From Naegleria gruberi (lineage: Eukaryota): 10,497 bases of DNA. Positions 1 to 10,497 of this stretch are shown in pieces. The stretch is from NCBI GenBank assembly GCA_000004985.1, contig GG739015.1; one strand, 5' to 3'. How positions within the stretch are numbered: position 1 is the stretch's first letter; each line of letters opens with the position of its first letter. The notes beneath the pieces are model-generated. The model had not been told where the DNA came from and searched no databases. It saw nothing but the letters and a program-made list of their open reading frames with translations. Both the position numbers and the translations under genes were made by a program.

Positions 1-882
1 ACATTCACATTGATTGGAAGATCGGAGGGTATCATCTTGATCCATCTTTTCAATACCTTCATAATTATTCCTTAATAGAAAGATATTATTTAATTTTCTT
101 GATAATGATGCTTATTACAATTAATATATATATAATGAGAGGCGTAGTAATATATTAGTGTGATGAAGCTAATATATTATATGCGCTTAATAACTTTTGT
201 TTGTTTTTTAAAGTATACTTTATTGAGAAAGTTTAATTGTGTGTTTGGTCCTTTGATTCAGCAAATTGTTCTCTACGGAGCATGAATCCCTTAGTTTTTT
301 TTTGATTTGGTAATGCTAAATGGCGGCAAAAAAAGGCGGGCTAAGGATGGATAAAATTGGATATATGCAAATCCTTAAATGATACTAGTCGAGTTATTAA
401 GGAGAATAAGTTCACCAATATGCGGAATGTTCCAAGTTTGGCATTTCTTGTTGGATTCACCAACATGTCTCCGCCAAGTTGAGGAAGTCTTGGAATGTCA
501 ATAAAACAAAACCTTAGAGTCGCGACTGCTTAACTCACTTTCTTGTTGTTTGACTTGTTGTGATATTCCATTCAATAAACTTTCTTCATTCTGCATTTGG
601 CTTAATATCGATGCATCTTTGCTATGGACAAAAAAGAGTTGACGAATATAGTACTTTCTTCTTTGCAATTATACCTTAATTTAATTGATTGTTATGGGTG
701 ATAGGGATGTTTTGAAAAATAGTGGTAACAATCTAACATTGTGTCATCAATAACAGTTCGGATATCCGAATCATTCATTATTCCGATAATGACAATTCAC
801 ATCACTTCACTCGTCAATCATCACAAAAATTCAGTAAAAAAAAAATCAAACCACTCAATTGCTAGACCGAATCACATCATCA

Positions 883-1094
883 TGGCTTCATCCACCACCA
901 ATGCACAGAGGGGAAAATTCCTTGGACACATTGAAAAGTTTCCATTTTGGGTCTGGGTATTGCTCTTCATCTTTTGTTGTCCATGTGCTTTGGTTTTCTA
1001 TATTCTCCATCGAAGAGAGAAGAGAACCATGCAAGGACAATTACGTTACGATCCGAACAATGTAAAAATTTCCTTCCAAGTTGATAATGTTTAA
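883..1094 (+). CDS. Hypothetical small protein of about 70 aa with one predicted transmembrane helix.
   Basis: An internal ATG at 883 sits in the 741..1094 ORF and gives MASSTTNAQRGKFLGHIEKFPFWVWVLLFIFCCPCALVFYILHRREKRTMQGQLRYDPNNVKISFQVDNV. The hydrophobic stretch is FPFWVWVLLFIFCCPCALVFYIL. The local GC content is clearly higher than the surrounding AT-rich sequence. No recognisable family, so this may be non-coding. Confidence 0.3.
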
Positions 1095-1692
1095 TTTTCT
1101 TTTGTTTTCTTTTGCTGTTTTTCCAATTTTTTGAATTTTTTGAATTTTACATGCGCAAACAAGAGAGGAATTTTATTGAAAATGATGAAAATGAGTAGAA
1201 TTGATGAAATTTGATAGGAAAAGTGTAGATGTGTGGATGTAAAACCTTTCAAGGGATTGGAAAGCAGTGATAGGATCATTCACATGCGTGCATGTGTTGT
1301 AAATTTTTTTGGATTTTCATACAGTAGTGCATGTGAAAATTTCAATATTTGGATTTGGAGCAGAAAATTAGCAAACTCATAAGGGAAAGTTTCAAATCTC
1401 GTACTAGGTTTGAATCATTCAATAAATAATATTTCTGTATGTAAATTCTATTTAAATTCTTATCAAAATTATTGTAAACTTGCCAATTGAACAAGATTGC
1501 AAATTCATGAACAATGAATAGCATTTTTAATGCTCAACAACCATTTCAATCAATCTCATCAGCATTTTGAAATCTTTTACACACCATTTAGAGAAGGAAA
1601 AAGAAATCAATTTCGAATTTCTATTTGAAATTTTTGTCGATTTTCTTCCAATTTTATTATTCTCAACATATTTCAAAATGTATTTGGAGCAG

Positions 1693-4600
1693 NNNNNNNN
1701 NNNNNNNNNNNNNNNNNNNNNNNNNNNNNNNNNNNNNNNNNNNNNNNNNNNNNNNNNNNNNNNNNNNNNNNNNNNNNNNNNNNNNNNNNNNNNNNNNNNN
1801 NNNNNNNNNNNNNNNNNNNNNNNNNNNNNNNNNNNNNNNNNNNNNNNNNNNNNNNNNNNNNNNNNNNNNNNNNNNNNNNNNNNNNNNNNNNNNNNNNNNN
1901 NNNNNNNNNNNNNNNNNNNNNNNNNNNNNNNNNNNNNNNNNNNNNNNNNNNNNNNNNNNNNNNNNNNNNNNNNNNNNNNNNNNNNNNNNNNNNNNNNNNN
2001 NNNNNNNNNNNNNNNNNNNNNNNNNNNNNNNNNNNNNNNNNNNNNNNNNNNNNNNNNNNNNNNNNNNNNNNNNNNNNNNNNNNNNNNNNNNNNNNNNNNN
2101 NNNNNNNNNNNNNNNNNNNNNNNNNNNNNNNNNNNNNNNNNNNNNNNNNNNNNNNNNNNNNNNNNNNNNNNNNNNNNNNNNNNNNNNNNNNNNNNNNNNN
2201 NNNNNNNNNNNNNNNNNNNNNNNNNNNNNNNNNNNNNNNNNNNNNNNNNNNNNNNNNNNNNNNNNNNNNNNNNNNNNNNNNNNNNNNNNNNNNNNNNNNN
2301 NNNNNNNNNNNNNNNNNNNNNNNNNNNNNNNNNNNNNNNNNNNNNNNNNNNNNNNNNNNNNNNNNNNNNNNNNNNNNNNNNNNNNNNNNNNNNNNNNNNN
2401 NNNNNNNNNNNNNNNNNNNNNNNNNNNNNNNNNNNNNNNNNNNNNNNNNNNNNNNNNNNNNNNNNNNNNNNNNNNNNNNNNNNNNNNNNNNNNNNNNNNN
2501 NNNNNNNNNNNNNNNNNNNNNNNNNNNNNNNNNNNNNNNNNNNNNNNNNNNNNNNNNNNNNNNNNNNNNNNNNNNNNNNNNNNNNNNNNNNNNNNNNNNN
2601 NNNNNNNNNNNNNNNNNNNNNNNNNNNNNNNNNNNNNNNNNNNNNNNNNNNNNNNNNNNNNNNNNNNNNNNNNNNNNNNNNNNNNNNNNNNNNNNNNNNN
2701 NNNNNNNNNNNNNNNNNNNNNNNNNNNNNNNNNNNNNNNNNNNNNNNNNNNNNNNNNNNNNNNNNNNNNNNNNNNNNNNNNNNNNNNNNNNNNNNNNNNN
2801 NNNNNNNNNNNNNNNNNNNNNNNNNNNNNNNNNNNNNNNNNNNNNNNNNNNNNNNNNNNNNNNNNNNNNNNNNNNNNNNNNNNNNNNNNNNNNNNNNNNN
2901 NNNNNNNNNNNNNNNNNNNNNNNNNNNNNNNNNNNNNNNNNNNNNNNNNNNNNNNNNNNNNNNNNNNNNNNNNNNNNNNNNNNNNNNNNNNNNNNNNNNN
3001 NNNNNNNNNNNNNNNNNNNNNNNNNNNNNNNNNNNNNNNNNNNNNNNNNNNNNNNNNNNNNNNNNNNNNNNNNNNNNNNNNNNNNNNNNNNNNNNNNNNN
3101 NNNNNNNNNNNNNNNNNNNNNNNNNNNNNNNNNNNNNNNNNNNNNNNNNNNNNNNNNNNNNNNNNNNNNNNNNNNNNNNNNNNNNNNNNNNNNNNNNNNN
3201 NNNNNNNNNNNNNNNNNNNNNNNNNNNNNNNNNNNNNNNNNNNNNNNNNNNNNNNNNNNNNNNNNNNNNNNNNNNNNNNNNNNNNNNNNNNNNNNNNNNN
3301 NNNNNNNNNNNNNNNNNNNNNNNNNNNNNNNNNNNNNNNNNNNNNNNNNNNNNNNNNNNNNNNNNNNNNNNNNNNNNNNNNNNNNNNNNNNNNNNNNNNN
3401 NNNNNNNNNNNNNNNNNNNNNNNNNNNNNNNNNNNNNNNNNNNNNNNNNNNNNNNNNNNNNNNNNNNNNNNNNNNNNNNNNNNNNNNNNNNNNNNNNNNN
3501 NNNNNNNNNNNNNNNNNNNNNNNNNNNNNNNNNNNNNNNNNNNNNNNNNNNNNNNNNNNNNNNNNNNNNNNNNNNNNNNNNNNNNNNNNNNNNNNNNNNN
3601 NNNNNNNNNNNNNNNNNNNNNNNNNNNNNNNNNNNNNNNNNNNNNNNNNNNNNNNNNNNNNNNNNNNNNNNNNNNNNNNNNNNNNNNNNNNNNNNNNNNN
3701 NNNNNNNNNNNNNNNNNNNNNNNNNNNNNNNNNNNNNNNNNNNNNNNNNNNNNNNNNNNNNNNNNNNNNNNNNNNNNNNNNNNNNNNNNNNNNNNNNNNN
3801 NNNNNNNNNNNNNNNNNNNNNNNNNNNNNNNNNNNNNNNNNNNNNNNNNNNNNNNNNNNNNNNNNNNNNNNNNNNNNNNNNNNNNNNNNNNNNNNNNNNN
3901 NNNNNNNNNNNNNNNNNNNNNNNNNNNNNNNNNNNNNNNNNNNNNNNNNNNNNNNNNNNNNNNNNNNNNNNNNNNNNNNNNNNNNNNNNNNNNNNNNNNN
4001 NNNNNNNNNNNNNNNNNNNNNNNNNNNNNNNNNNNNNNNNNNNNNNNNNNNNNNNNNNNNNNNNNNNNNNNNNNNNNNNNNNNNNNNNNNNNNNNNNNNN
4101 NNNNNNNNNNNNNNNNNNNNNNNNNNNNNNNNNNNNNNNNNNNNNNNNNNNNNNNNNNNNNNNNNNNNNNNNNNNNNNNNNNNNNNNNNNNNNNNNNNNN
4201 NNNNNNNNNNNNNNNNNNNNNNNNNNNNNNNNNNNNNNNNNNNNNNNNNNNNNNNNNNNNNNNNNNNNNNNNNNNNNNNNNNNNNNNNNNNNNNNNNNNN
4301 NNNNNNNNNNNNNNNNNNNNNNNNNNNNNNNNNNNNNNNNNNNNNNNNNNNNNNNNNNNNNNNNNNNNNNNNNNNNNNNNNNNNNNNNNNNNNNNNNNNN
4401 NNNNNNNNNNNNNNNNNNNNNNNNNNNNNNNNNNNNNNNNNNNNNNNNNNNNNNNNNNNNNNNNNNNNNNNNNNNNNNNNNNNNNNNNNNNNNNNNNNNN
4501 NNNNNNNNNNNNNNNNNNNNNNNNNNNNNNNNNNNNNNNNNNNNNNNNNNNNNNNNNNNNNNNNNNNNNNNNNNNNNNNNNNNNNNNNNNNNNNNNNNNN

Positions 4601-6434
4601 NNNNNNNNNNNNNNNNNNNNNNNNNNNNNNNNNNNNNNNNNNNNNNNNNNNNNNNNNNNNNNNNNNNNNNNNNNNNNNNNNNNNNNNNNNNNNNNNNNNN
4701 NNNNNNNNNNNNNNNNNNNNNNNNNNNNNNNNNNNNNNNNNNNNNNNNNNNNNNNNNNNNNNNNNNNNNNNNNNNNNNNNNNNNNNNNNNNNNNNNNNNN
4801 NNNNNNNNNNNNNNNNNNNNNNNNNNNNNNNNNNNNNNNNNNNNNNNNNNNNNNNNNNNNNNNNNNNNNNNNNNNNNNNNNNNNNNNNNNNNNNNNNNNN
4901 NNNNNNNNNNNNNNNNNNNNNNNNNNNNNNNNNNNNNNNNNNNNNNNNNNNNNNNNNNNNNNNNNNNNNNNNNNNNNNNNNNNNNNNNNNNNNNNNNNNN
5001 NNNNNNNNNNNNNNNNNNNNNNNNNNNNNNNNNNNNNNNNNNNNNNNNNNNNNNNNNNNNNNNNNNNNNNNNNNNNNNNNNNNNNNNNNNNNNNNNNNNN
5101 NNNNNNNNNNNNNNNNNNNNNNNNNNNNNNNNNNNNNNNNNNNNNNNNNNNNNNNNNNNNNNNNNNNNNNNNNNNNNNNNNNNNNNNNNNNNNNNNNNNN
5201 NNNNNNNNNNNNNNNNNNNNNNNNNNNNNNNNNNNNNNNNNNNNNNNNNNNNNNNNNNNNNNNNNNNNNNNNNNNNNNNNNNNNNNNNNNNNNNNNNNNN
5301 NNNNNNNNNNNNNNNNNNNNNNNNNNNNNNNNNNNNNNNNNNNNNNNNNNNNNNNNNNNNNNNNNNNNNNNNNNNNNNNNNNNNNNNNNNNNNNNNNNNN
5401 NNNNNNNNNNNNNNNNNNNNNNNNNNNNNNNNNNNNNNNNNNNNNNNNNNNNNNNNNNNNNNNNNNNNNNNNNNNNNNNNNNNNNNNNNNNNNNNNNNNN
5501 NNNNNNNNNNNNNNNNNNNNNNNNNNNNNNNNNNNNNNNNNNNNNNNNNNNNNNNNNNNNNNNNNNNNNNNNNNNNNNNNNNNNNNNNNNNNNNNNNNNN
5601 NNNNNNNNNNNNNNNNNNNNNNNNNNNNNNNNNNNNNNNNNNNNNNNNNNNNNNNNNNNNNNNNNNNNNNNNNNNNNNNNNNNNNNNNNNNNNNNNNNNN
5701 NNNNNNNNNNNNNNNNNNNNNNNNNNNNNNNNNNNNNNNNNNNNNNNNNNNNNNNNNNNNNNNNNNNNNNNNNNNNNNNNNNNNNNNNNNNNNNNNNNNN
5801 NNNNNNNNNNNNNNNNNNNNNNNNNNNNNNNNNNNNNNNNNNNNNNNNNNNNNNNNNNNNNNNNNNNNNNNNNNNNNNNNNNNNNNNNNNNNNNNNNNNN
5901 NNNNNNNNNNNNNNNNNNNNNNNNNNNNNNNNNNNNNNNNNNNNNNNNNNNNNNNNNNNNNNNNNNNNNNNNNNNNNNNNNNNNNNNNNNNNNNNNNNNN
6001 NNNNNNNNNNNNNNNNNNNNNNNNNNNNNNNNNNNNNNNNNNNNNNNNNNNNNNNNNNNNNNNNNNNNNNNNNNNNNNNNNNNNNNNNNNNNNNNNNNNN
6101 NNNNNNNNNNNNNNNNNNNNNNNNNNNNNNNNNNNNNNNNNNNNNNNNNNNNNNNNNNNNNNNNNNNNNNNNNNNNNNNNNNNNNNNNNNNNNNNNNNNN
6201 NNNNNNNNNNNNNNNNNNNNNNNNNNNNNNNNNNNNNNNNNNNNNNNNNNNNNNNNNNNNNNNNNNNNNNNNNNNNNNNNNNNNNNNNNNNNNNNNNNNN
6301 NNNNNNNNNNNNNNNNNNNNNNNNNNNNNNNNNNNNNNNNNNNNNNNNNNNNNNNNNNNNNNNNNNNNNNNNNNNNNNNNNNNNNNNNNNNNNNNNNNNN
6401 NNNNNNNNNNNNNNNNNNNNNNNNNNNNNNNNNN
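1693..6434. other. Assembly gap (4,742 N).
   Basis: An uninterrupted run of n from 1693 to 6434. Confidence 1.
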
Positions 6435-6750
6435 GTTTATCTTGTGGAATTTCTTGAATTAATTTCATCATTTCAGAAAAATCATTTTCATTATTAATTA
6501 TATAAATTGTTTTTCTCTTCTCAGAAGATGGAACAATAGCCTTGATCTTGAAAGTGGATAATAACACTTCATCAGAAGAAGTAGCAGATGGCAAATCTTG
6601 AACAAATTCTCTAACAGATTCATTCAAGCCTCCGAAATTAATTAATTGGAAAACCTTTTCAATACTTTCTTCCTTGTTCTTTCTCATGATTAATTTACCA
6701 GTGAGAGTATTATTATTGTTATTATTAGTACACATTTTCTTTCTTATCAA
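6435..6750 (-). CDS. N-terminal part of an unidentified protein, truncated by the assembly gap. It has a poly-Asn tract and a possible ubiquitin-like or beta-grasp type N-terminal region.
   Basis: The minus-strand frame is open from the ATG at 6748..6750 for 105 codons (MIRKKMCTNNNNNNTLTGKLIMRKNKEESIEKVFQLINFGGLNESVREFVQDLPSATSSDEVLLSTFKIKAIVPSSEKRKTIYIINNENDFSEMMKLIQEIPQDK) and continues into the N-run. Its GC content is higher than the flanking DNA. No family can be assigned by eye. Confidence 0.45.
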
Positions 6751-6942
6751 TTGTTTTAGATTATTATTTAAATAATTGTTTGATTTGTTTTTTTTGTTGA
6801 AAAATGAAAATAGAATAGGCGGGAAATTTTATTTCATTCCACAATAGCAAAGTTCACCATCTCTCCAATAATAGTTTTTTTGTAAGGTTACAACAACTTT
6901 CAATGTAGGTTGGTTGTCAAACATTAAAAGAAGTTCGACCAT

Positions 6943-7308
6943 CTACCAATACTCACCACAACTACAATTCCCATCTCGTACAATGATGTCACATTCTCTA
7001 ATTTTTGAAATGGCTTTTGCTGCTTGATGGCAATCACCACAAACTCTCAAGTTTGCAGTTATGCAAAGGGTAGATCCTTTTGGTAAAGAAATCAAACCGT
7101 ATGCAATAGCAAGTTTTTCACAATGTTGGAACAGAACTTTTTCTTTTTCCTCTTCAGTGGTGATATCTTTTTTCATGCCCAAACTTGTATCTGGATGGTA
7201 GAGTTTGGATTCCAACAATTCCAACCTTAGCGTATCTAGTTCAGCCCTAATTAGGTTAATCTCTTTATGCTTATCATCCTCACTAACAAATGTAATTACC
7301 CATCTATT
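6943..7308 (-). CDS. PPR gene fragment 3: truncated DYW cytidine-deaminase-like domain.
   Basis: This fragment is in the same frame as fragment 2. It encodes NRWVITFVSEDDKHKEINLIRAELDTLRLELLESKLYHPDT...HCEKLAIAYGLI...NLRVCGDCHQAAKAISKIRECDIIVRDGNCSCGEYW. The HxE lies at about 7117..7125 and the CGDCH at 7027..7041. The stop is TAG at 6943..6945. Confidence 0.8.
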   Translation of the reverse strand, partial: NRWVITFVSEDDKHKEINLIRAELDTLRLELLESKLYHPDTSLGMKKDITTEEEKEKVLFQHCEKLAIAYGLISLPKGSTLCITANLRVCGDCHQAAKAISKIRECDIIVRDGNCSCGEYW

Positions 7309-7761
7309 TCAATTGTGTGTGTGTAAATAAATATTCGACATTAATATGTAAGCTGCAGCATTGGAAGGGCTTTGGGATATCACTCTTTCGAATGCCACTT
7401 CACCAAACTCAATATTGTTATATTTTCTACTAGCTCCCAACAAGGTCATCCAAATTATGGTGTCTGTTTCGTCTGAATCAATAAAGAAATGCGCCTCCTC
7501 TAAAAAACCTGCTCTTCCCAACATGTCTATGATGCAAGTTTTGTGTTTAATGTCTGGTTCAATATCATGATTAGTTTGCATACTTTCATAGATTTGAAAT
7601 CCTTCCTTAATTAATCCACTATGACTACACGCATTCAAAACTGCTGACACAACAAATGTGGTATCATTAGGAGCTATCCTCATTTCTTTGAATATCCTAA
7701 TCGCTTCTGGGAAGTCTTCATGAGTGATATAAATATTCGAGAGTTTGGTGGAATTCGATTA
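7309..7761 (-). CDS. PPR gene fragment 2: last PPR motifs plus the E-type motif, ending LMSNIY (frame B).
   Basis: Frame B is open from 7761 down to TGA at 7309..7311. It encodes ...EAIRIFKEMRIAPNDTTFVVSAVLNACSHSGLIKEGFQIYESM...IDMLGRAGFLEEA...ILMSNIYLHTHN. This is the canonical layout of the last PPR and E motifs of plant PLS proteins. Confidence 0.75.
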
Positions 7762-8681
7762 CTTTTCATCAACTCTAAAACATTCAAAGCTTGAGTGAAA
7801 TTCGAACTGTTAATACATCCCTTGATTAGTGCATGATAGTGAGATGGCAAAATTACTCTAGTTTTGGATGTGAGTATTTGCAGAGCATTTTGGTATTTTC
7901 CAAGACTCGAAAGGGCTAGAATAACATAGCTAAAAGTTTGCTTGTCCGTCTCAATTGAAGATTCCATCTCGCTGAATAACAGTAGTACTTCATTGTAAAG
8001 AGAGTGATGTGCGTATGCGGAAAGCATTGCATTCCATGTTGCTGTTGGTTTCTTCTCCATGCTGTGAANCAGTTCAATAGACCTTTCTAATAACCCACAC
8101 TTGGAGAACATAGAAATGAGGCTTGTTTGGACAATTATATCATTGAAAAATCCACTATTAATAATTAATTCTTCCAGGTTTAAAGCAGATGCTTTTGTGG
8201 TGCATCCAGTACTAATATTACCTCTCATTTCTGATACTGCAATTAACGCTTTTTGAATTTGTTTAGTATTAACTAAAGCTTTGATGTAGCAGGAATAATG
8301 AAACTTGTCAGGTGCCCCAATGTTTCGAAATATTAACTCTGCCTCGAATTGCTTCCACAAGTCCCTTTTCCTTTGCATATCTATTGGTTTTTTAAGGAAC
8401 GTTGTTATAAGATATAAATTTGGTTTATCAATAGCTTTGAATATTTTATCACACTCCTCCACAGAAAACTTTTCTCCCGAAATCAAGAAGGCACCATCAT
8501 AGGAATTAGGGTTTACATAGAATTTCGATAAGGCTTGTTGTTTTCTTGGAAAAGGCTTTTCACGAGGCTGGTTGTAATTTTTTTCATTTTTAAAAAATAG
8601 GAAATTGGTAAGGCCTTTATATATGAGCCAATAAATACTGGCAAGAAATTCCTTACATGCTTTCATTCTTGTTGTTTTCAC
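7680..8681 (-). CDS. PPR gene fragment 1: N-terminal region and degenerate PLS-type PPR repeats (frame A).
   Basis: A 333-aa ORF with repeated PPR-like helices, for example VQTSLISMFSKCGLLERSIEL and TWNAMLSAYAHHSLYNEVLLLFSEME. It contains one X from the n at 8069. Confidence 0.75.
   Translation of the reverse strand: MKTTRMKACKEFLASIYWLIYKGLTNFLFFKNEKNYNQPREKPFPRKQQALSKFYVNPNSYDGAFLISGEKFSVEECDKIFKAIDKPNLYLITTFLKKPIDMQRKRDLWKQFEAELIFRNIGAPDKFHYSCYIKALVNTKQIQKALIAVSEMRGNISTGCTTKASALNLEELIINSGFFNDIIVQTSLISMFSKCGLLERSIELXHSMEKKPTATWNAMLSAYAHHSLYNEVLLLFSEMESSIETDKQTFSYVILALSSLGKYQNALQILTSKTRVILPSHYHALIKGCINSSNFTQALNVLELMKSNRIPPNSRIFISLMKTSQKRLGYSKK
8069..8069. other. Single ambiguous base inside the PPR coding sequence.
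   Basis: An n at 8069, giving an X in the 7680..8681 ORF translation. Confidence 1.
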
Positions 8682-8849
8682 AATATTATATTTCCAGTCA
8701 TGTAAGATCCAGTAGAAAAGAAATCTCTTTGTTGATGAGAGCTAAAAATTTCCCACCAAAAATCCCGCTAAAATATTTCCACGTAAATATTTTTATTTTT
8801 TCATTAATTTTTTCGCACTTTTGTTAACAAAAATTCAAGTCAAACTTTA

Positions 8850-9115
8850 TTGATTTTCGTTAATAATTAACAAAAAAAACGAAATAAAAACGTAAACGTT
8901 TGTTGGGAAAAAAATTTCAAATTTACAGGTAAATTAACGCTAAATTTTATCGTAAATTATTGACGATTTTTCAATAATGTTTAACATTAAATATTATTGA
9001 AAAATTGTTATCAAAAAACGTTAATCATTAGCGAAAAATCGTCAATATTTCACAATAAAATTTGACTCATAATTGTCATCAATCATTAACGAAAAACTGT
9101 TAATGATTTACACAC
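8850..9115. repeat. Palindrome and inverted-repeat cluster. It may be a MITE-like element or a structured regulatory module.
   Basis: Near-palindrome gttaataattaac at 8860..8872. A 14-bp inverted repeat attgacgatttttc (8959..8972) pairs with gaaaaatcgtcaat (9033..9046), with a 60-bp spacer. A direct repeat aatcattagcgaaaaa (9023..9038) matches aatcattaacgaaaaa (9081..9096). A perfect hairpin lies at 9081..9108. Confidence 0.5.
9081..9108. repeat. Perfect 10-bp stem / 8-nt loop hairpin palindrome.
   Basis: aatcattaac (9081..9090), then gaaaaact (9091..9098), then gttaatgatt (9099..9108). The two arms are exact reverse complements. Confidence 0.9.
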
Positions 9116-9272
9116 AACTCTAATAAAATTCCAAGTCGAGTTGTCGTCAATCCAAGTTCCGAAATTCCGACTAAATCCATCTGAAAAAAAATATACTCAC
9201 TCACTTCCTGCTTCCAACTAAAAGTGTTCACTTCCTCTCATCTACATCAGAAATGAAACACCAACAAGCTAC

Positions 9273-9382
9273 TTACCATTAAATTATTCATCATTATCCA
9301 ATAAATCTATTGCATTTAAATTGAATAACTGTAAATAAATTAAATAAATTAAATAAATTAAACAAATTACCATTAAATTATT
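9273..9382. repeat. A 16-bp direct repeat ttaccattaaattatt (9273..9288 and 9367..9382) flanking the minisatellite segment.
   Basis: Identical 16-mers separated by 78 bp. Possibly a duplication, a footprint or a TSD-like structure. Confidence 0.6.
9332..9367. repeat. Tandem 9-mer minisatellite, (TAAATAAAT)x3 plus one variant copy.
   Basis: taaataaat taaataaat taaataaat taaacaaat read directly. Confidence 0.9.
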
Positions 9383-9498
9383 GTACTCGTGACTCACCCG
9401 ATTGAATTAAAATCTTCATCAAATAAATCAACCTCTGTAAATACCATTGCTGATTAATTAAATTGTTGAATATCAATTATTATTATTGTATTTAAAGA

Positions 9499-9548
9499 NN
9501 NNNNNNNNNNNNNNNNNNNNNNNNNNNNNNNNNNNNNNNNNNNNNNNN
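9499..9548. other. Assembly gap (50 N), probably a placeholder of unknown size.
   Basis: A run of exactly 50 n. Confidence 1.
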
Positions 9549-9776
9549 TAATCAGAATCAGAAGAACTATTTGAATTCTCTGTTGAAATTTCCTCTCTAA
9601 CTCTCTTCTAGCTGTTATTCTTTTCATTCTCCTTTGATACATCATGATCACCCTTCTTCGATTTCTTCCCAGGGATCTCTTCAACTACATTTGCAGTGGA
9701 TTCACCATTTGAATTCTCACCCTCCAATTTGCTTTAGCTTTAACAATCTAGTACTTGGCAAGCTTGCTCTTATTTC

Positions 9777-10058
9777 TCAATACTTTGCCCATTCATTCGA
9801 TAATAATCTTGAATAATTAGCGGATCCGTCAAGCTCTGTTATTGGTTTCTTTAAAATTGATGTGCAAACATGTAAGATCTGAGCAGTTTTCACGGAAAGC
9901 TCACAAATTTCAACGTTAACACTATTACTTGATCGCCATGTTGAATAGTCAAGAGCGATAATTGGATGATATCTTGATTTTAGACTTTGGTGTACCAGCT
10001 TGGTTATTATCTGAATCTGAATCCGAATCTGATCAGGGCATGAAATCAAAATCTCCAA
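9777..10058 (-). CDS. Unassigned 93-aa ORF, possibly an exon of an unknown gene or non-coding.
   Basis: M-to-stop ORF MEILISCPDQIRIQIQIITKLVHQSLKSRYHPIIALDYSTWRSSNSVNVEICELSVKTAQILHVCTSILKKPITELDGSANYSRLLSNEWAKY. A short adjacent minus-strand open frame (~10066..10260) lies in another frame. No family is recognisable. Confidence 0.15.
   Translation of the reverse strand: MEILISCPDQIRIQIQIITKLVHQSLKSRYHPIIALDYSTWRSSNSVNVEICELSVKTAQILHVCTSILKKPITELDGSANYSRLLSNEWAKY
10011..10034. repeat. Imperfect hexamer tandem repeat, (CTGAAT)-like x4.
   Basis: ctgaat ctgaat ccgaat ctgatc. On the minus strand it encodes QIRIQIQI within the 9777..10058 ORF. Confidence 0.8.
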
Positions 10059-10497
10059 TTTTTAATCAAGATTGAAATGATTCCAGTTCTTTATTGGGAG
10101 AAATTCGATCTCCTCTTCCTGAAACAAAAATATCCTTCATTTCTTCACAAATCTTATTCGCAGATTTAATATCTTGCTGAATTGGAACATATGTTGTTGA
10201 AAGAGTGAAAATGAGACCTTCTCCAAAAAGGCAGAATTCATTGCTAAGGGCCGTACAATCAACAGCATATAACTAGTTCACAGAAAATTTGGAGTTGCCT
10301 TCTTTACGGAAACAAATCTTGCTAATCCTTTAACACCTGCAGAACAAGTTCAATAGAATCCATTACGTATTATGATAGGTGTCAATTATGTGATCTTCTT
10401 GATCTGAATGAACCCTTAAACTCAGGACAATGTATTGCTGGCAACTATGTAGTGAGTAAGAAACGAGATGCTTTGATACAAAAACCAAGAAGGTTTG

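What the first reader, a model, noticed from the sequence alone, without database searches (positions are those of the whole stretch)
8850..9115. Dense palindrome and inverted-repeat cluster with recurring CG-containing words in the PPR gene 5' flank
In an otherwise CpG-poor, AT-rich tract the same short words recur in both orientations. These are CGTTAAT (8858, 9019), CGTAAA (8891, 8951), TTAACG (8934, 9087), TTAGCG (9027), TTGACG (8960) and AAAACG (several copies). There is also a 14-bp inverted repeat pair with a 60-bp spacer, a 16-bp direct repeat and a perfect 10-bp-stem hairpin. This architecture fits either a small non-autonomous transposon (MITE-like, roughly 150 to 270 bp) or a cluster of paired half-sites for a DNA-binding protein that controls the downstream gene.
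Basis: seen in the sequence. Interest (0 to 1): 0.5.

Follow-up and report, generated by a model that had tools for sequence, protein, structure and literature searches.

The report
Decaying palindromic repeat block in Naegleria
The "CG word" cluster is real, but it is eight worn copies of one 21-base palindromic module piled up between two broken genes of the amoeba Naegleria (not a plant); it looks like ordinary decaying repeat DNA, with no sign of a working switch or an identifiable jumping gene.

Summary
Every word, the 14-bp inverted repeat, the 16-bp direct repeat and the 10-bp hairpin are present, two of them one base off, and the pattern is far beyond chance. All of it reduces to one module: a palindromic 15-mer, CGTyAAT-N-ATTrACG, followed by an A5-6 tract. 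There are eight copies in 8854-9118. They form three 42-47-bp dimers, one inverted and two direct, with 21-bp spacing inside each dimer.

The context was misread. The window is Naegleria, not a plant. The downstream PPR-DYW gene carries a frameshift, an in-frame stop and deletions, and the upstream gene is also a pseudogene.

The module's CpGs are decaying. All 9 departures from CG are TG or CA. No position is conserved beyond what uniform decay would give.

No TIR+TSD pair beats shuffled sequence. There is no second copy in the window and no related cluster in the metagenome, viral or prokaryote collections. The Naegleria genome could not be reached, so copy number is untested.

Best reading: a duplication-derived, decaying palindromic repeat block. 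A transposon remnant and a homeodomain-type site cluster remain rivals. Interest is low.

The parts
8854..8878 (+). Module U1: TTTT CGTTAATAATTAACA AAAAAA (palindromic 15-mer plus A tract)
   Evidence: PWM scan; 1 mismatch to CGTTAATNATTAACG
8945..8969 (-). Module U2 (read on minus strand: AAAT CGTCAATAATTTACG ATAAAA). Outer half of the inverted dimer
8966..8990 (-). Module U3 (minus strand: TTAA TGTTAAACATTATTG AAAAAT). Both terminal CGs have decayed to TG
8981..9005 (+). Module U4 (TTAA CATTAAATATTATTG AAAAAT). The weakest copy; it overlaps U3 at the centre of the palindrome
9015..9039 (+). Module U5: AAAA CGTTAATCATTAGCG AAAAAT
9036..9060 (+). Module U6: AAAT CGTCAATATTTCACA ATAAAA, 21 nt after U5
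   Evidence: (family D1)
9073..9097 (+). Module U7: TTGT CATCAATCATTAACG AAAAAC
9094..9118 (+). Module U8: AAAC TGTTAATGATTTACA CACAAC, 21 nt after U7. U7 and U8 together give the perfect 10-bp hairpin 9081-9090 / 9099-9108
   Evidence: (I18)
8942..9063 (.). Long imperfect palindrome. Arms 8942-8988 and 9017-9063 are 47 nt and 85% complementary, with a 28-nt loop. It is dimer U3U2 facing dimer U5U6
   Evidence: I1; score 26 vs 10.4 +/- 1.2 in shuffles; RNA fold -45.5 kcal/mol, z -10.6, on the minus strand
9122..9153 (+). Degenerate partial repeat of 9054-9084 (71%), ending in a half-module TTGTCGTCAATC. Right edge of the block
   Evidence: D3
8838..8852 (+). 15-nt word AGTCAAACTTTATTG, inverted copy at 9053-9067 (93%). 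Approximate left edge of the block
   Evidence: I8
6943..8666 (-). Flanking PPR-DYW reading frame (context, not part of the repeat). Frameshift near 7714-7740, in-frame TGA at 7309-7311, E2 and DYW deletions
9611..9979 (-). Flanking pseudogene related to N. gruberi NAEGRDRAFT_54818 (context). Frame changes and in-frame stops

Best explanation
The block from about 8838 to 9153 (core 8854-9118) is non-coding repeat DNA. It was built by serial duplication and inversion of one ~21-bp module: a hairpin-prone palindromic 15-mer (consensus CGTyAAT-N-ATTrACG) followed by an A5-6 tract.

Shown:
- Eight module copies.
- Two-module dimers of 42-47 bp, present once inverted and twice direct, at 78-85% identity. 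The identity includes the spacers.
- A 21-bp pitch inside each dimer.

Inferred:
- The copies arose in place, by replication slippage or template switching at the palindrome, or were carried in by an element that can no longer be recognised.
- They are now drifting neutrally. The CG ends of the module are being lost through CpG-to-TpG/CpA transitions, which is the deamination signature expected if the DNA is cytosine-methylated.

The 'recurring CG words in both orientations' are what is left of the module's two terminal CpGs, seen on both strands because the module is a palindrome. The block has no demonstrable present function. It can physically fold into a cruciform or hairpin, but nothing indicates that it controls the neighbouring disabled PPR-DYW gene.
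For: - One module explains all the words: 8 copies by PWM, and 5 copies of the 15-mer against 0.08-0.28 expected.
- The dimer alignment has 84% mean column identity, and the inter-site spacer GAAAAA is as conserved as the sites. That is duplication, not convergent site maintenance.
- The long inverted repeat is far above shuffles.
- Of the 15 module termini, 7 are CG, 6 are CA and 2 are TG.
- Against the consensus, CpG sites changed at 9 of 32 positions, all transitions. Other sites changed at 16 of 120, with 4 transitions. By my hypergeometric calculation on those counts, p is about 3.5e-4, ignoring shared ancestry.
- There are 7 invariant columns out of 20, against about 6.6 expected from uniform 13% divergence (my arithmetic on the counts). 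Hence no position-specific constraint.
- Both flanking genes are degenerate, so this stretch of the scaffold is decaying as a whole.
- TRF finds no regular tandem array and TIR+TSD candidates are at chance level.
- N. gruberi encodes a Tet-like enzyme that acts on 5mC (PMC4678852), consistent with a cytosine-methylation system.
Against: - CpG observed/expected is still 3.5 in a window where it is 0.54 elsewhere. Either the block is fairly young or something protects its CpGs.
- Three rounds of duplication plus an inversion within 300 bp is unusual for purely local events and more typical of transposon ends.
- Neutrality is argued from only 8 related copies.
- Copy number in the Naegleria genome was not testable, so a dispersed family cannot be excluded.
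- The frameshifts in the flanking genes could partly be sequencing errors in a low-coverage draft scaffold. The in-frame stops argue otherwise.
Confidence: 0.45

Rival explanations
1. Remnant of a non-autonomous DNA transposon (foldback-like or MITE-like, or the subterminal region of a larger element). The palindromic modules would be repeated transposase-binding sites, as in the subterminal motif arrays of hAT, CACTA and P/Galileo-type elements and the sub-repeated arms of foldback elements (comparison from general knowledge).
For: - A short CG-containing motif is repeated in both orientations within about 270 AT-rich, non-coding bp.
- A 122-bp segment folds almost end to end into a hairpin, as many MITEs do.
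- CpG content is far above the local background, as expected of a younger insertion.
- It sits among pseudogenes on a small gap-ridden scaffold, the kind of place repeats collect.
Against: - No terminal inverted repeat with a flanking target-site duplication exceeds what shuffles give: maximum TSD >=7 in 14% of shuffles and >=6 in 40%.
- The 47-nt arms have no TSD.
- No second copy lies in the remaining 5.4 kb of the window.
- Scans for the consensus module or the dimer junction gave only isolated single matches, with no clusters: 14 in metagenomes, 5 in viral contigs, 12 in prokaryote genomes.
- No transposase is nearby.
Confidence: 0.3
2. Homotypic cluster of binding sites for a dimeric homeodomain-type (or other helix-turn-helix) transcription factor, set two helical turns apart, acting as an enhancer or promoter module for the PPR-DYW gene.
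For: - The inner 13 bases of the module are the HNF1 consensus GTTAATNATTAAC (PMC11476927). U1 lacks only its last base.
- The core AAT-N-ATT also resembles HD-Zip CAAT(N)ATTG sites (from memory).
- The 21-bp spacing inside dimers puts sites on one face of the helix.
- T3, A5, A6, T10 and T11 are invariant in all 8 copies.
- The block lies 185-450 bp upstream of the first ATG.
- N. gruberi has homeobox genes, 12 of them TALE (PMC6219170).
Against: - The number of invariant positions is what uniform decay predicts.
- The CG flanks are being lost by CpG transitions.
- Spacers are as conserved as sites.
- The gene downstream looks dead.
- The PWM finds no comparable module elsewhere in the window, and so not in its other intergenic stretches.
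- HNF1 itself is a metazoan factor, so the match is a resemblance only.
Confidence: 0.13
3. A transcribed long hairpin on the gene-sense (minus) strand that is processed into small RNAs, or that acts as a structured element in the PPR 5' leader or the upstream gene's 3' end.
For: - The minus-strand RNA of 8938-9066 folds at -45.5 kcal/mol, z -10.6. This is better than the plus strand (-34.9, z -6.5), because 4 of the 7 arm mismatches become G.U pairs on that strand.
- Both neighbouring genes are transcribed in that direction.
Against: - Four same-strand G.U mismatches is not significant (about 1 in 8). Three of them are simply CpG-to-CpA changes.
- No Rfam family matches.
- There is no expression evidence, and any DNA palindrome gives such folds.
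Confidence: 0.05

Closest known systems
Foldback elements and MITEs with sub-repeated arms (e.g. Drosophila FB, Galileo-type long TIRs, plant hairpin MITEs)
   Same: Small, AT-rich and non-coding. Inverted arms are built from short sub-repeats, and the segment folds nearly end to end into a hairpin.
   Different: No terminal inverted repeat with a target-site duplication beyond chance. The arms are only 47 nt (two modules). Extra direct copies lie outside the palindrome. Multicopy status is unknown.
Subterminal transposase-binding motif arrays of hAT and CACTA elements (Ac/Ds AAACGG repeats, En/Spm 12-bp motifs)
   Same: A CG-containing short motif recurs in both orientations over about 250 bp of AT-rich DNA.
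   Different: Here 'both orientations' follows trivially from the module being a palindrome. No element terminus, TSD or transposase was identified.
HNF1-type and HD-Zip-type palindromic homeodomain dimer sites (GTTAATNATTAAC; CAAT(N)ATTG)
   Same: The same half-site geometry, AAT-N-ATT with a one-base centre. The HNF1 consensus is contained in the module consensus (PMC11476927).
   Different: HNF1 is an animal factor and HD-Zip a plant factor. No Naegleria factor is known to bind this site. The sites show decay, not constraint.
Minisatellite or local tandem duplication with inversion (palindrome amplification by template switching)
   Same: A unit of about 21 bp and a 42-bp higher-order unit, with copies at 78-85% identity confined to one locus.
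   Different: It is not a regular head-to-tail array: TRF reports nothing here. The spacings are irregular (93, 21, 13, 34, 21, 37 and 21 nt between successive module centres, from the coordinates), and one dimer is inverted.

Membership tests
MITE | Terminal inverted repeats at the element ends | tested here: inconclusive
   Many inverted repeats exist. They are internal consequences of the palindromic module, and none defines a unique pair of ends.
MITE | Target-site duplication directly flanking the TIRs | tested here: not met
   Best candidates: 7-bp TTATTGA around 8854-8956 with a weak 10-nt TIR, and 6-bp AAAAAT around 8750-8909. Shuffles give TSD >=7 in 14% and >=6 in 40% of trials. The 47-nt arms have no TSD.
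MITE | Short (<800 bp) with no coding capacity | tested here: met
   The block is about 270-315 bp. Its only ORF overlap is the last 16 bases of a 26-codon minus-strand ORF (9180-9103) reaching into U8. No ORF of 70 aa or more lies in the block and the flanking ORF fragments gave no credible Pfam match.
MITE | Many dispersed copies in the host genome | not testable with these tools
   The Naegleria genome is not in any searchable collection. There is no second copy in the window, only isolated chance matches elsewhere, and the look-ups for Naegleria contigs failed.
Foldback element | Long inverted arms composed of tandem sub-repeats, with little or no loop | tested here: inconclusive
   The arms are 47 nt, two 21-nt modules each, with a 28-nt loop. 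The form is right but far shorter than classical FB arms.
Homeodomain-dimer (HNF1 / HD-Zip-like) binding-site cluster | Match to the palindromic consensus GTTAATNATTAAC | tested here: met
   U1 and U5 match CGTTAATNATTAACG with 1 mismatch, U2 and U7 with 2, U8 with 3. Consensus cited from PMC11476927.
Homeodomain-dimer (HNF1 / HD-Zip-like) binding-site cluster | Site positions conserved above the surrounding sequence (constraint) | tested here: not met
   7 invariant columns of 20 against about 6.6 expected under uniform 13% divergence. The spacer A tract is as conserved as the core, and the CpG flanks are decaying.
Homeodomain-dimer (HNF1 / HD-Zip-like) binding-site cluster | A cognate factor that binds the site, and a dependent target gene | not testable with these tools
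   N. gruberi has homeobox genes (PMC6219170) but no binding data. The candidate target gene appears disabled.
Tandem repeat / minisatellite | Head-to-tail copies with a constant period | tested here: not met
   TRF at minimum score 30 reports no array in 8850-9115. The 21-nt period holds only inside each dimer.
Structured RNA family (Rfam) | Match to a curated covariance model | tested here: not met
   No match at gathering thresholds anywhere in the window.

The most novel reading that the evidence does not exclude
The block is one copy of an undescribed Naegleria foldback/MITE-like family. Its repeated modules would be binding sites for a homeodomain-like, HNF1-geometry DNA-binding domain of a transposase or domesticated factor, and its gene-sense transcript would fold into a -45 kcal/mol hairpin able to feed the RNAi pathway.
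Probability: 0.1. Interest if true: 0.45.

Novelty: new member of a known kind. Interest (0 to 1): 0.2.

Why it matters
It matters little on present evidence. It is a tidy example of how one palindromic module, duplicated, inverted and eroded by CpG transitions, can look like a rich vocabulary of motifs. It also corrects the context from plant to Naegleria.

If the block proved to be a dispersed family, it would add a transposon type to a protist whose mobile DNA is poorly described. It would also give an in-genome read-out of CpG decay in an organism with a Tet/5mC system. If instead it were a conserved homeodomain-type site cluster, it would be one of the first cis-regulatory modules defined in a heterolobosean.

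Tried and rejected
1. Reaching Naegleria DNA for copy-number or orthologue tests.
- Exact-product look-ups failed for three window ORFs and for NAEGRDRAFT_54818.
- A metagenome scan with the PPR N-terminus gave 217 pattern matches but no relative.
- A protein search with P0121 returned only itself.

2. Pattern scans.
- CGTTAATNATTAACGAAAAA in metagenomes: 14 isolated hits.
- CGTYAATNATTRACGAAAAA in viral contigs: 5 isolated hits.
- The dimer junction GAAAAATCGTCAATANTTNAC in prokaryote genomes: 12 isolated hits in unrelated bacteria.
- PWM re-scans of all these loci found no clusters. I treat them as chance.

3. Plant origin was rejected. PPR identity to plants is at most 35%, and the only specific match of the neighbouring gene is to Naegleria.

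4. Other negatives: Rfam, TRF, and Pfam on the flanking ORF fragments, where the only matches were below cut-off at E >= 0.03.

5. A Helitron-like 3' end was considered: the hairpin at 9081-9108 followed by CTAA at 9120-9123. I dropped it. The hairpin is AT-rich, CTAA is trivial in this composition, and there are no other copies to define an end.

6. Strand-asymmetric G.U pairing as evidence for an RNA hairpin is not significant and is explained by CpG-to-CpA changes.

7. The literature search for Naegleria MITEs or transposon ends found nothing relevant.

Full report
**Observation**

I read 8500-10497 and the rest of the window. All are present. TTAACG is at 9086, not 9087, and TTAGCG at 9028, not 9027.

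The three named structures are also there:
- The 14-bp inverted repeat with a 60-bp spacer is ATTGACGATTTTTC (8959-8972) / GAAAAATCGTCAAT (9033-9046).
- The 16-bp direct repeat is 9023-9038 / 9081-9096 (15/16).
- The perfect 10-bp stem is 9081-9090 / 9099-9108.

The tract is 22% G+C, yet it holds 11 CpGs where about 3 are expected. CpG observed/expected is 3.5, against 0.54 for the rest of the window.

**Is it more than chance?**

Yes.
- The palindromic 15-mer CGTTAATNATTAACG occurs 5 times at <=3 mismatches within 8858-9112. Shuffles of the whole window give 0.28, and shuffles of the 601-nt tract 8700-9300 give 0.076.
- The best inverted-repeat score in 8700-9300 is 26, against 10.4 +/- 1.2 (maximum 16) in 300 shuffles.
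- The tract folds as ssDNA with z = -4.3.

**Anatomy**

An iterated PWM scan reduces everything to one module: four A/T bases, the 15-mer CGTyAAT-N-ATTrACG, then A5-6. There are eight copies:

| Module | Start | Strand |
|---|---|---|
| U1 | 8854 | + |
| U2 | 8945 | - |
| U3 | 8966 | - |
| U4 | 8981 | + |
| U5 | 9015 | + |
| U6 | 9036 | + |
| U7 | 9073 | + |
| U8 | 9094 | + |

Modules pair into dimers with a 21-nt pitch: U3U2 (inverted), U5U6 and U7U8.
- The three dimers align without gaps at 84% mean column identity. The GAAAAA spacer is as conserved as the sites.
- U3U2 facing U5U6 makes the 47-nt, 85% inverted repeat 8942-8988 / 9017-9063.
- U7 and U8 make the perfect hairpin.
- A degenerate partial repeat with a half-module continues to 9153 (D3). 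A 15-nt word at 8838-8852 is inverted at 9053-9067 (I8).
- TRF sees no regular tandem array here.

The words in 'both orientations' are therefore the two ends of a palindrome, copied eight times.

**Context**

The window is a draft scaffold with gaps at 1693-6434 and 9499-9548.

The minus-strand reading frame 8666 to 6943 is a PPR-DYW protein by Pfam: PPR at 6.8e-28 and DYW_deaminase at 1.4e-26.
- It is only 23-35% identical to plant proteins, and 24-33% to the listed hits among 1.84 billion representatives.
- It has a frameshift near 7714-7740 and an in-frame TGA at 7309-7311.
- It lacks about 30 residues of the E2 region and about 9 of the DYW domain, judged against the usual plant pattern (the comparison pattern is from general knowledge).

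The sequence to the right (9611-9979, minus strand) matches one protein only in a database of 5.8 billion non-redundant sequences: NAEGRDRAFT_54818 of Naegleria gruberi.
- The match is 90% over 31 residues, tblastn 1e-19 overall, with frame changes and in-frame stops.
- The organism is therefore Naegleria, or a very close relative, not a plant.
- DYW-type PPR proteins are discussed in the literature on heterolobosean mitochondrial RNA editing (search result PMC4202320).

The block thus lies between the 3' end of one pseudogene and the 5' end of another apparently disabled gene.

**Decay pattern**

Of the 15 distinct module termini, 7 are CG, 6 are CA and 2 are TG.

| Site class | Changed vs consensus | Transitions |
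|---|---|---|
| CpG sites | 9 of 32 | 9 |
| Other sites | 16 of 120 | 4 |

My hypergeometric calculation on them gives p of about 3.5e-4, ignoring shared ancestry among copies.

Seven of 20 columns are invariant. A uniform 13% divergence predicts about 6.6, so no position stands out as constrained. This is the signature of neutral drift with hypermutable, presumably methylated, CpGs. N. gruberi encodes a Tet-like dioxygenase that acts on 5mC (PMC4678852). That its genome is methylated at this locus is an inference.

**Transposon tests**

- A MITE-style scan for TIR >=10 plus TSD >=2 in 8690-9400 gave 63 candidates, the best with 7-bp and 6-bp A/T-rich 'TSDs'.
- Shuffled sequence gives 42 candidates on average, with TSD >=7 in 14% and >=6 in 40% of trials.
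- The 47-nt arms are not flanked by any duplication.
- Sensitive BLASTN of the block against the rest of the window found only low-complexity matches.
- Consensus-module scans of the metagenome, viral and prokaryote collections gave isolated single hits without clusters.
- I could not reach Naegleria genomic DNA by any route. The decisive copy-number test remains undone.

**Regulatory reading**

For:
- The inner 13 bases of the module equal the HNF1 consensus GTTAATNATTAAC (PMC11476927).
- The AAT-N-ATT geometry is that of homeodomain dimers.
- N. gruberi has 12 TALE homeobox genes (PMC6219170).
- The 21-nt pitch is two helical turns.

Against:
- There is no position-specific constraint.
- The CG flanks are eroding.
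- The spacers are conserved, which indicates duplication.
- The target gene looks dead.
- The PWM finds no comparable module anywhere else in the window.

**RNA reading**

The minus (gene-sense) strand of 8938-9066 folds at -45.5 kcal/mol (z -10.6), against -34.9 (z -6.5) for the plus strand. Four of the seven arm mismatches are G.U on the minus strand. Three of those are simply CpG-to-CpA changes, and four of four on one strand is not significant.

**Verdict**

The feature is real and non-random, but it is ordinary in kind: a duplication-derived, decaying array of one palindromic module in a degenerate intergenic stretch of a Naegleria scaffold.

| Reading | Probability |
|---|---|
| Locally amplified, now neutral repeat | 0.45 |
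| Transposon (foldback/MITE-like) remnant | 0.30 |
| Homeodomain-type site cluster | 0.13 |
| Hairpin RNA locus | 0.05 |

Its two interpretations are neither proven nor excluded, and the plant framing was wrong. Interest 0.2.

Noticed in passing
window 9611-10100, minus strand: The window is from Naegleria, not a plant. This stretch matches only NAEGRDRAFT_54818 of N. gruberi in the protein database (90% over 31 aa), but with frame changes and in-frame stops, so it is a pseudogene copy. The (ATCTGA)4 repeat at 10009-10032 corresponds to the SDSDSDSD run of that protein.
   Followed up: yes
window 6943-8666, minus strand: The PPR-DYW frame has a frameshift near 7714-7740, an in-frame TGA at 7309-7311, and what look like deletions of the E2/PG-box region and of about 9 residues before the terminal ...CSCGEYW. 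It has no relative above 35% identity in either protein library. It is either a pseudogene or a very divergent, poorly sequenced heterolobosean DYW gene.
   Followed up: partly
window 9100-9279, minus strand: ATG|GTAAGT at 9279-9271 and a T-rich ...CAG acceptor just before a second ATG at 9180. That ATG opens a 26-codon ORF (MDLVGISELGLTTTRLGILLELCVNH) whose stop (9102-9100) lies inside module U8. This may be a small upstream exon or a chance ORF. If real, part of the repeat block would be transcribed or intronic.
   Followed up: no
window 9317-9369: A (TAAATTAAA)n microsatellite, 5.8 copies at 86% match, lies in the same intergenic region. The stretch 9150-9450 has a strong C-over-G skew (-0.46 to -0.53).
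   Followed up: no
window 8741-8787: A two-copy direct repeat GCTAAAAATTTCCCACCAAAA / GCTAAAATATTTCCACGTAAA (76%) sits immediately upstream of the PPR ATG. The word TTTCCCACCAAA is inverted at 8899-8910.
   Followed up: no
window 6436-6750, minus strand: An ORF beginning MCTNNNNNNTLTGKLIMRKNKEES... starts about 190 bp downstream of the PPR stop and runs into the 4.7-kb gap. It has no Pfam match and no database relative.
   Followed up: partly
window 883-1094, plus strand: A small ORF (MASSTTNAQRGKFLGHIEKFPFWVWVLLFIFCCPCALVFYILHRREKRTMQGQLRYDPNN...) with a hydrophobic, cysteine-rich segment. A possible GTAAAA splice donor follows ...DPNN. It has no database match.
   Followed up: partly
window 1-10497: CpG is depleted across the window outside the block (observed/expected 0.44-0.65) while GpC is about 1. 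This is consistent with cytosine-methylation-driven CpG loss in this genome.
   Followed up: partly
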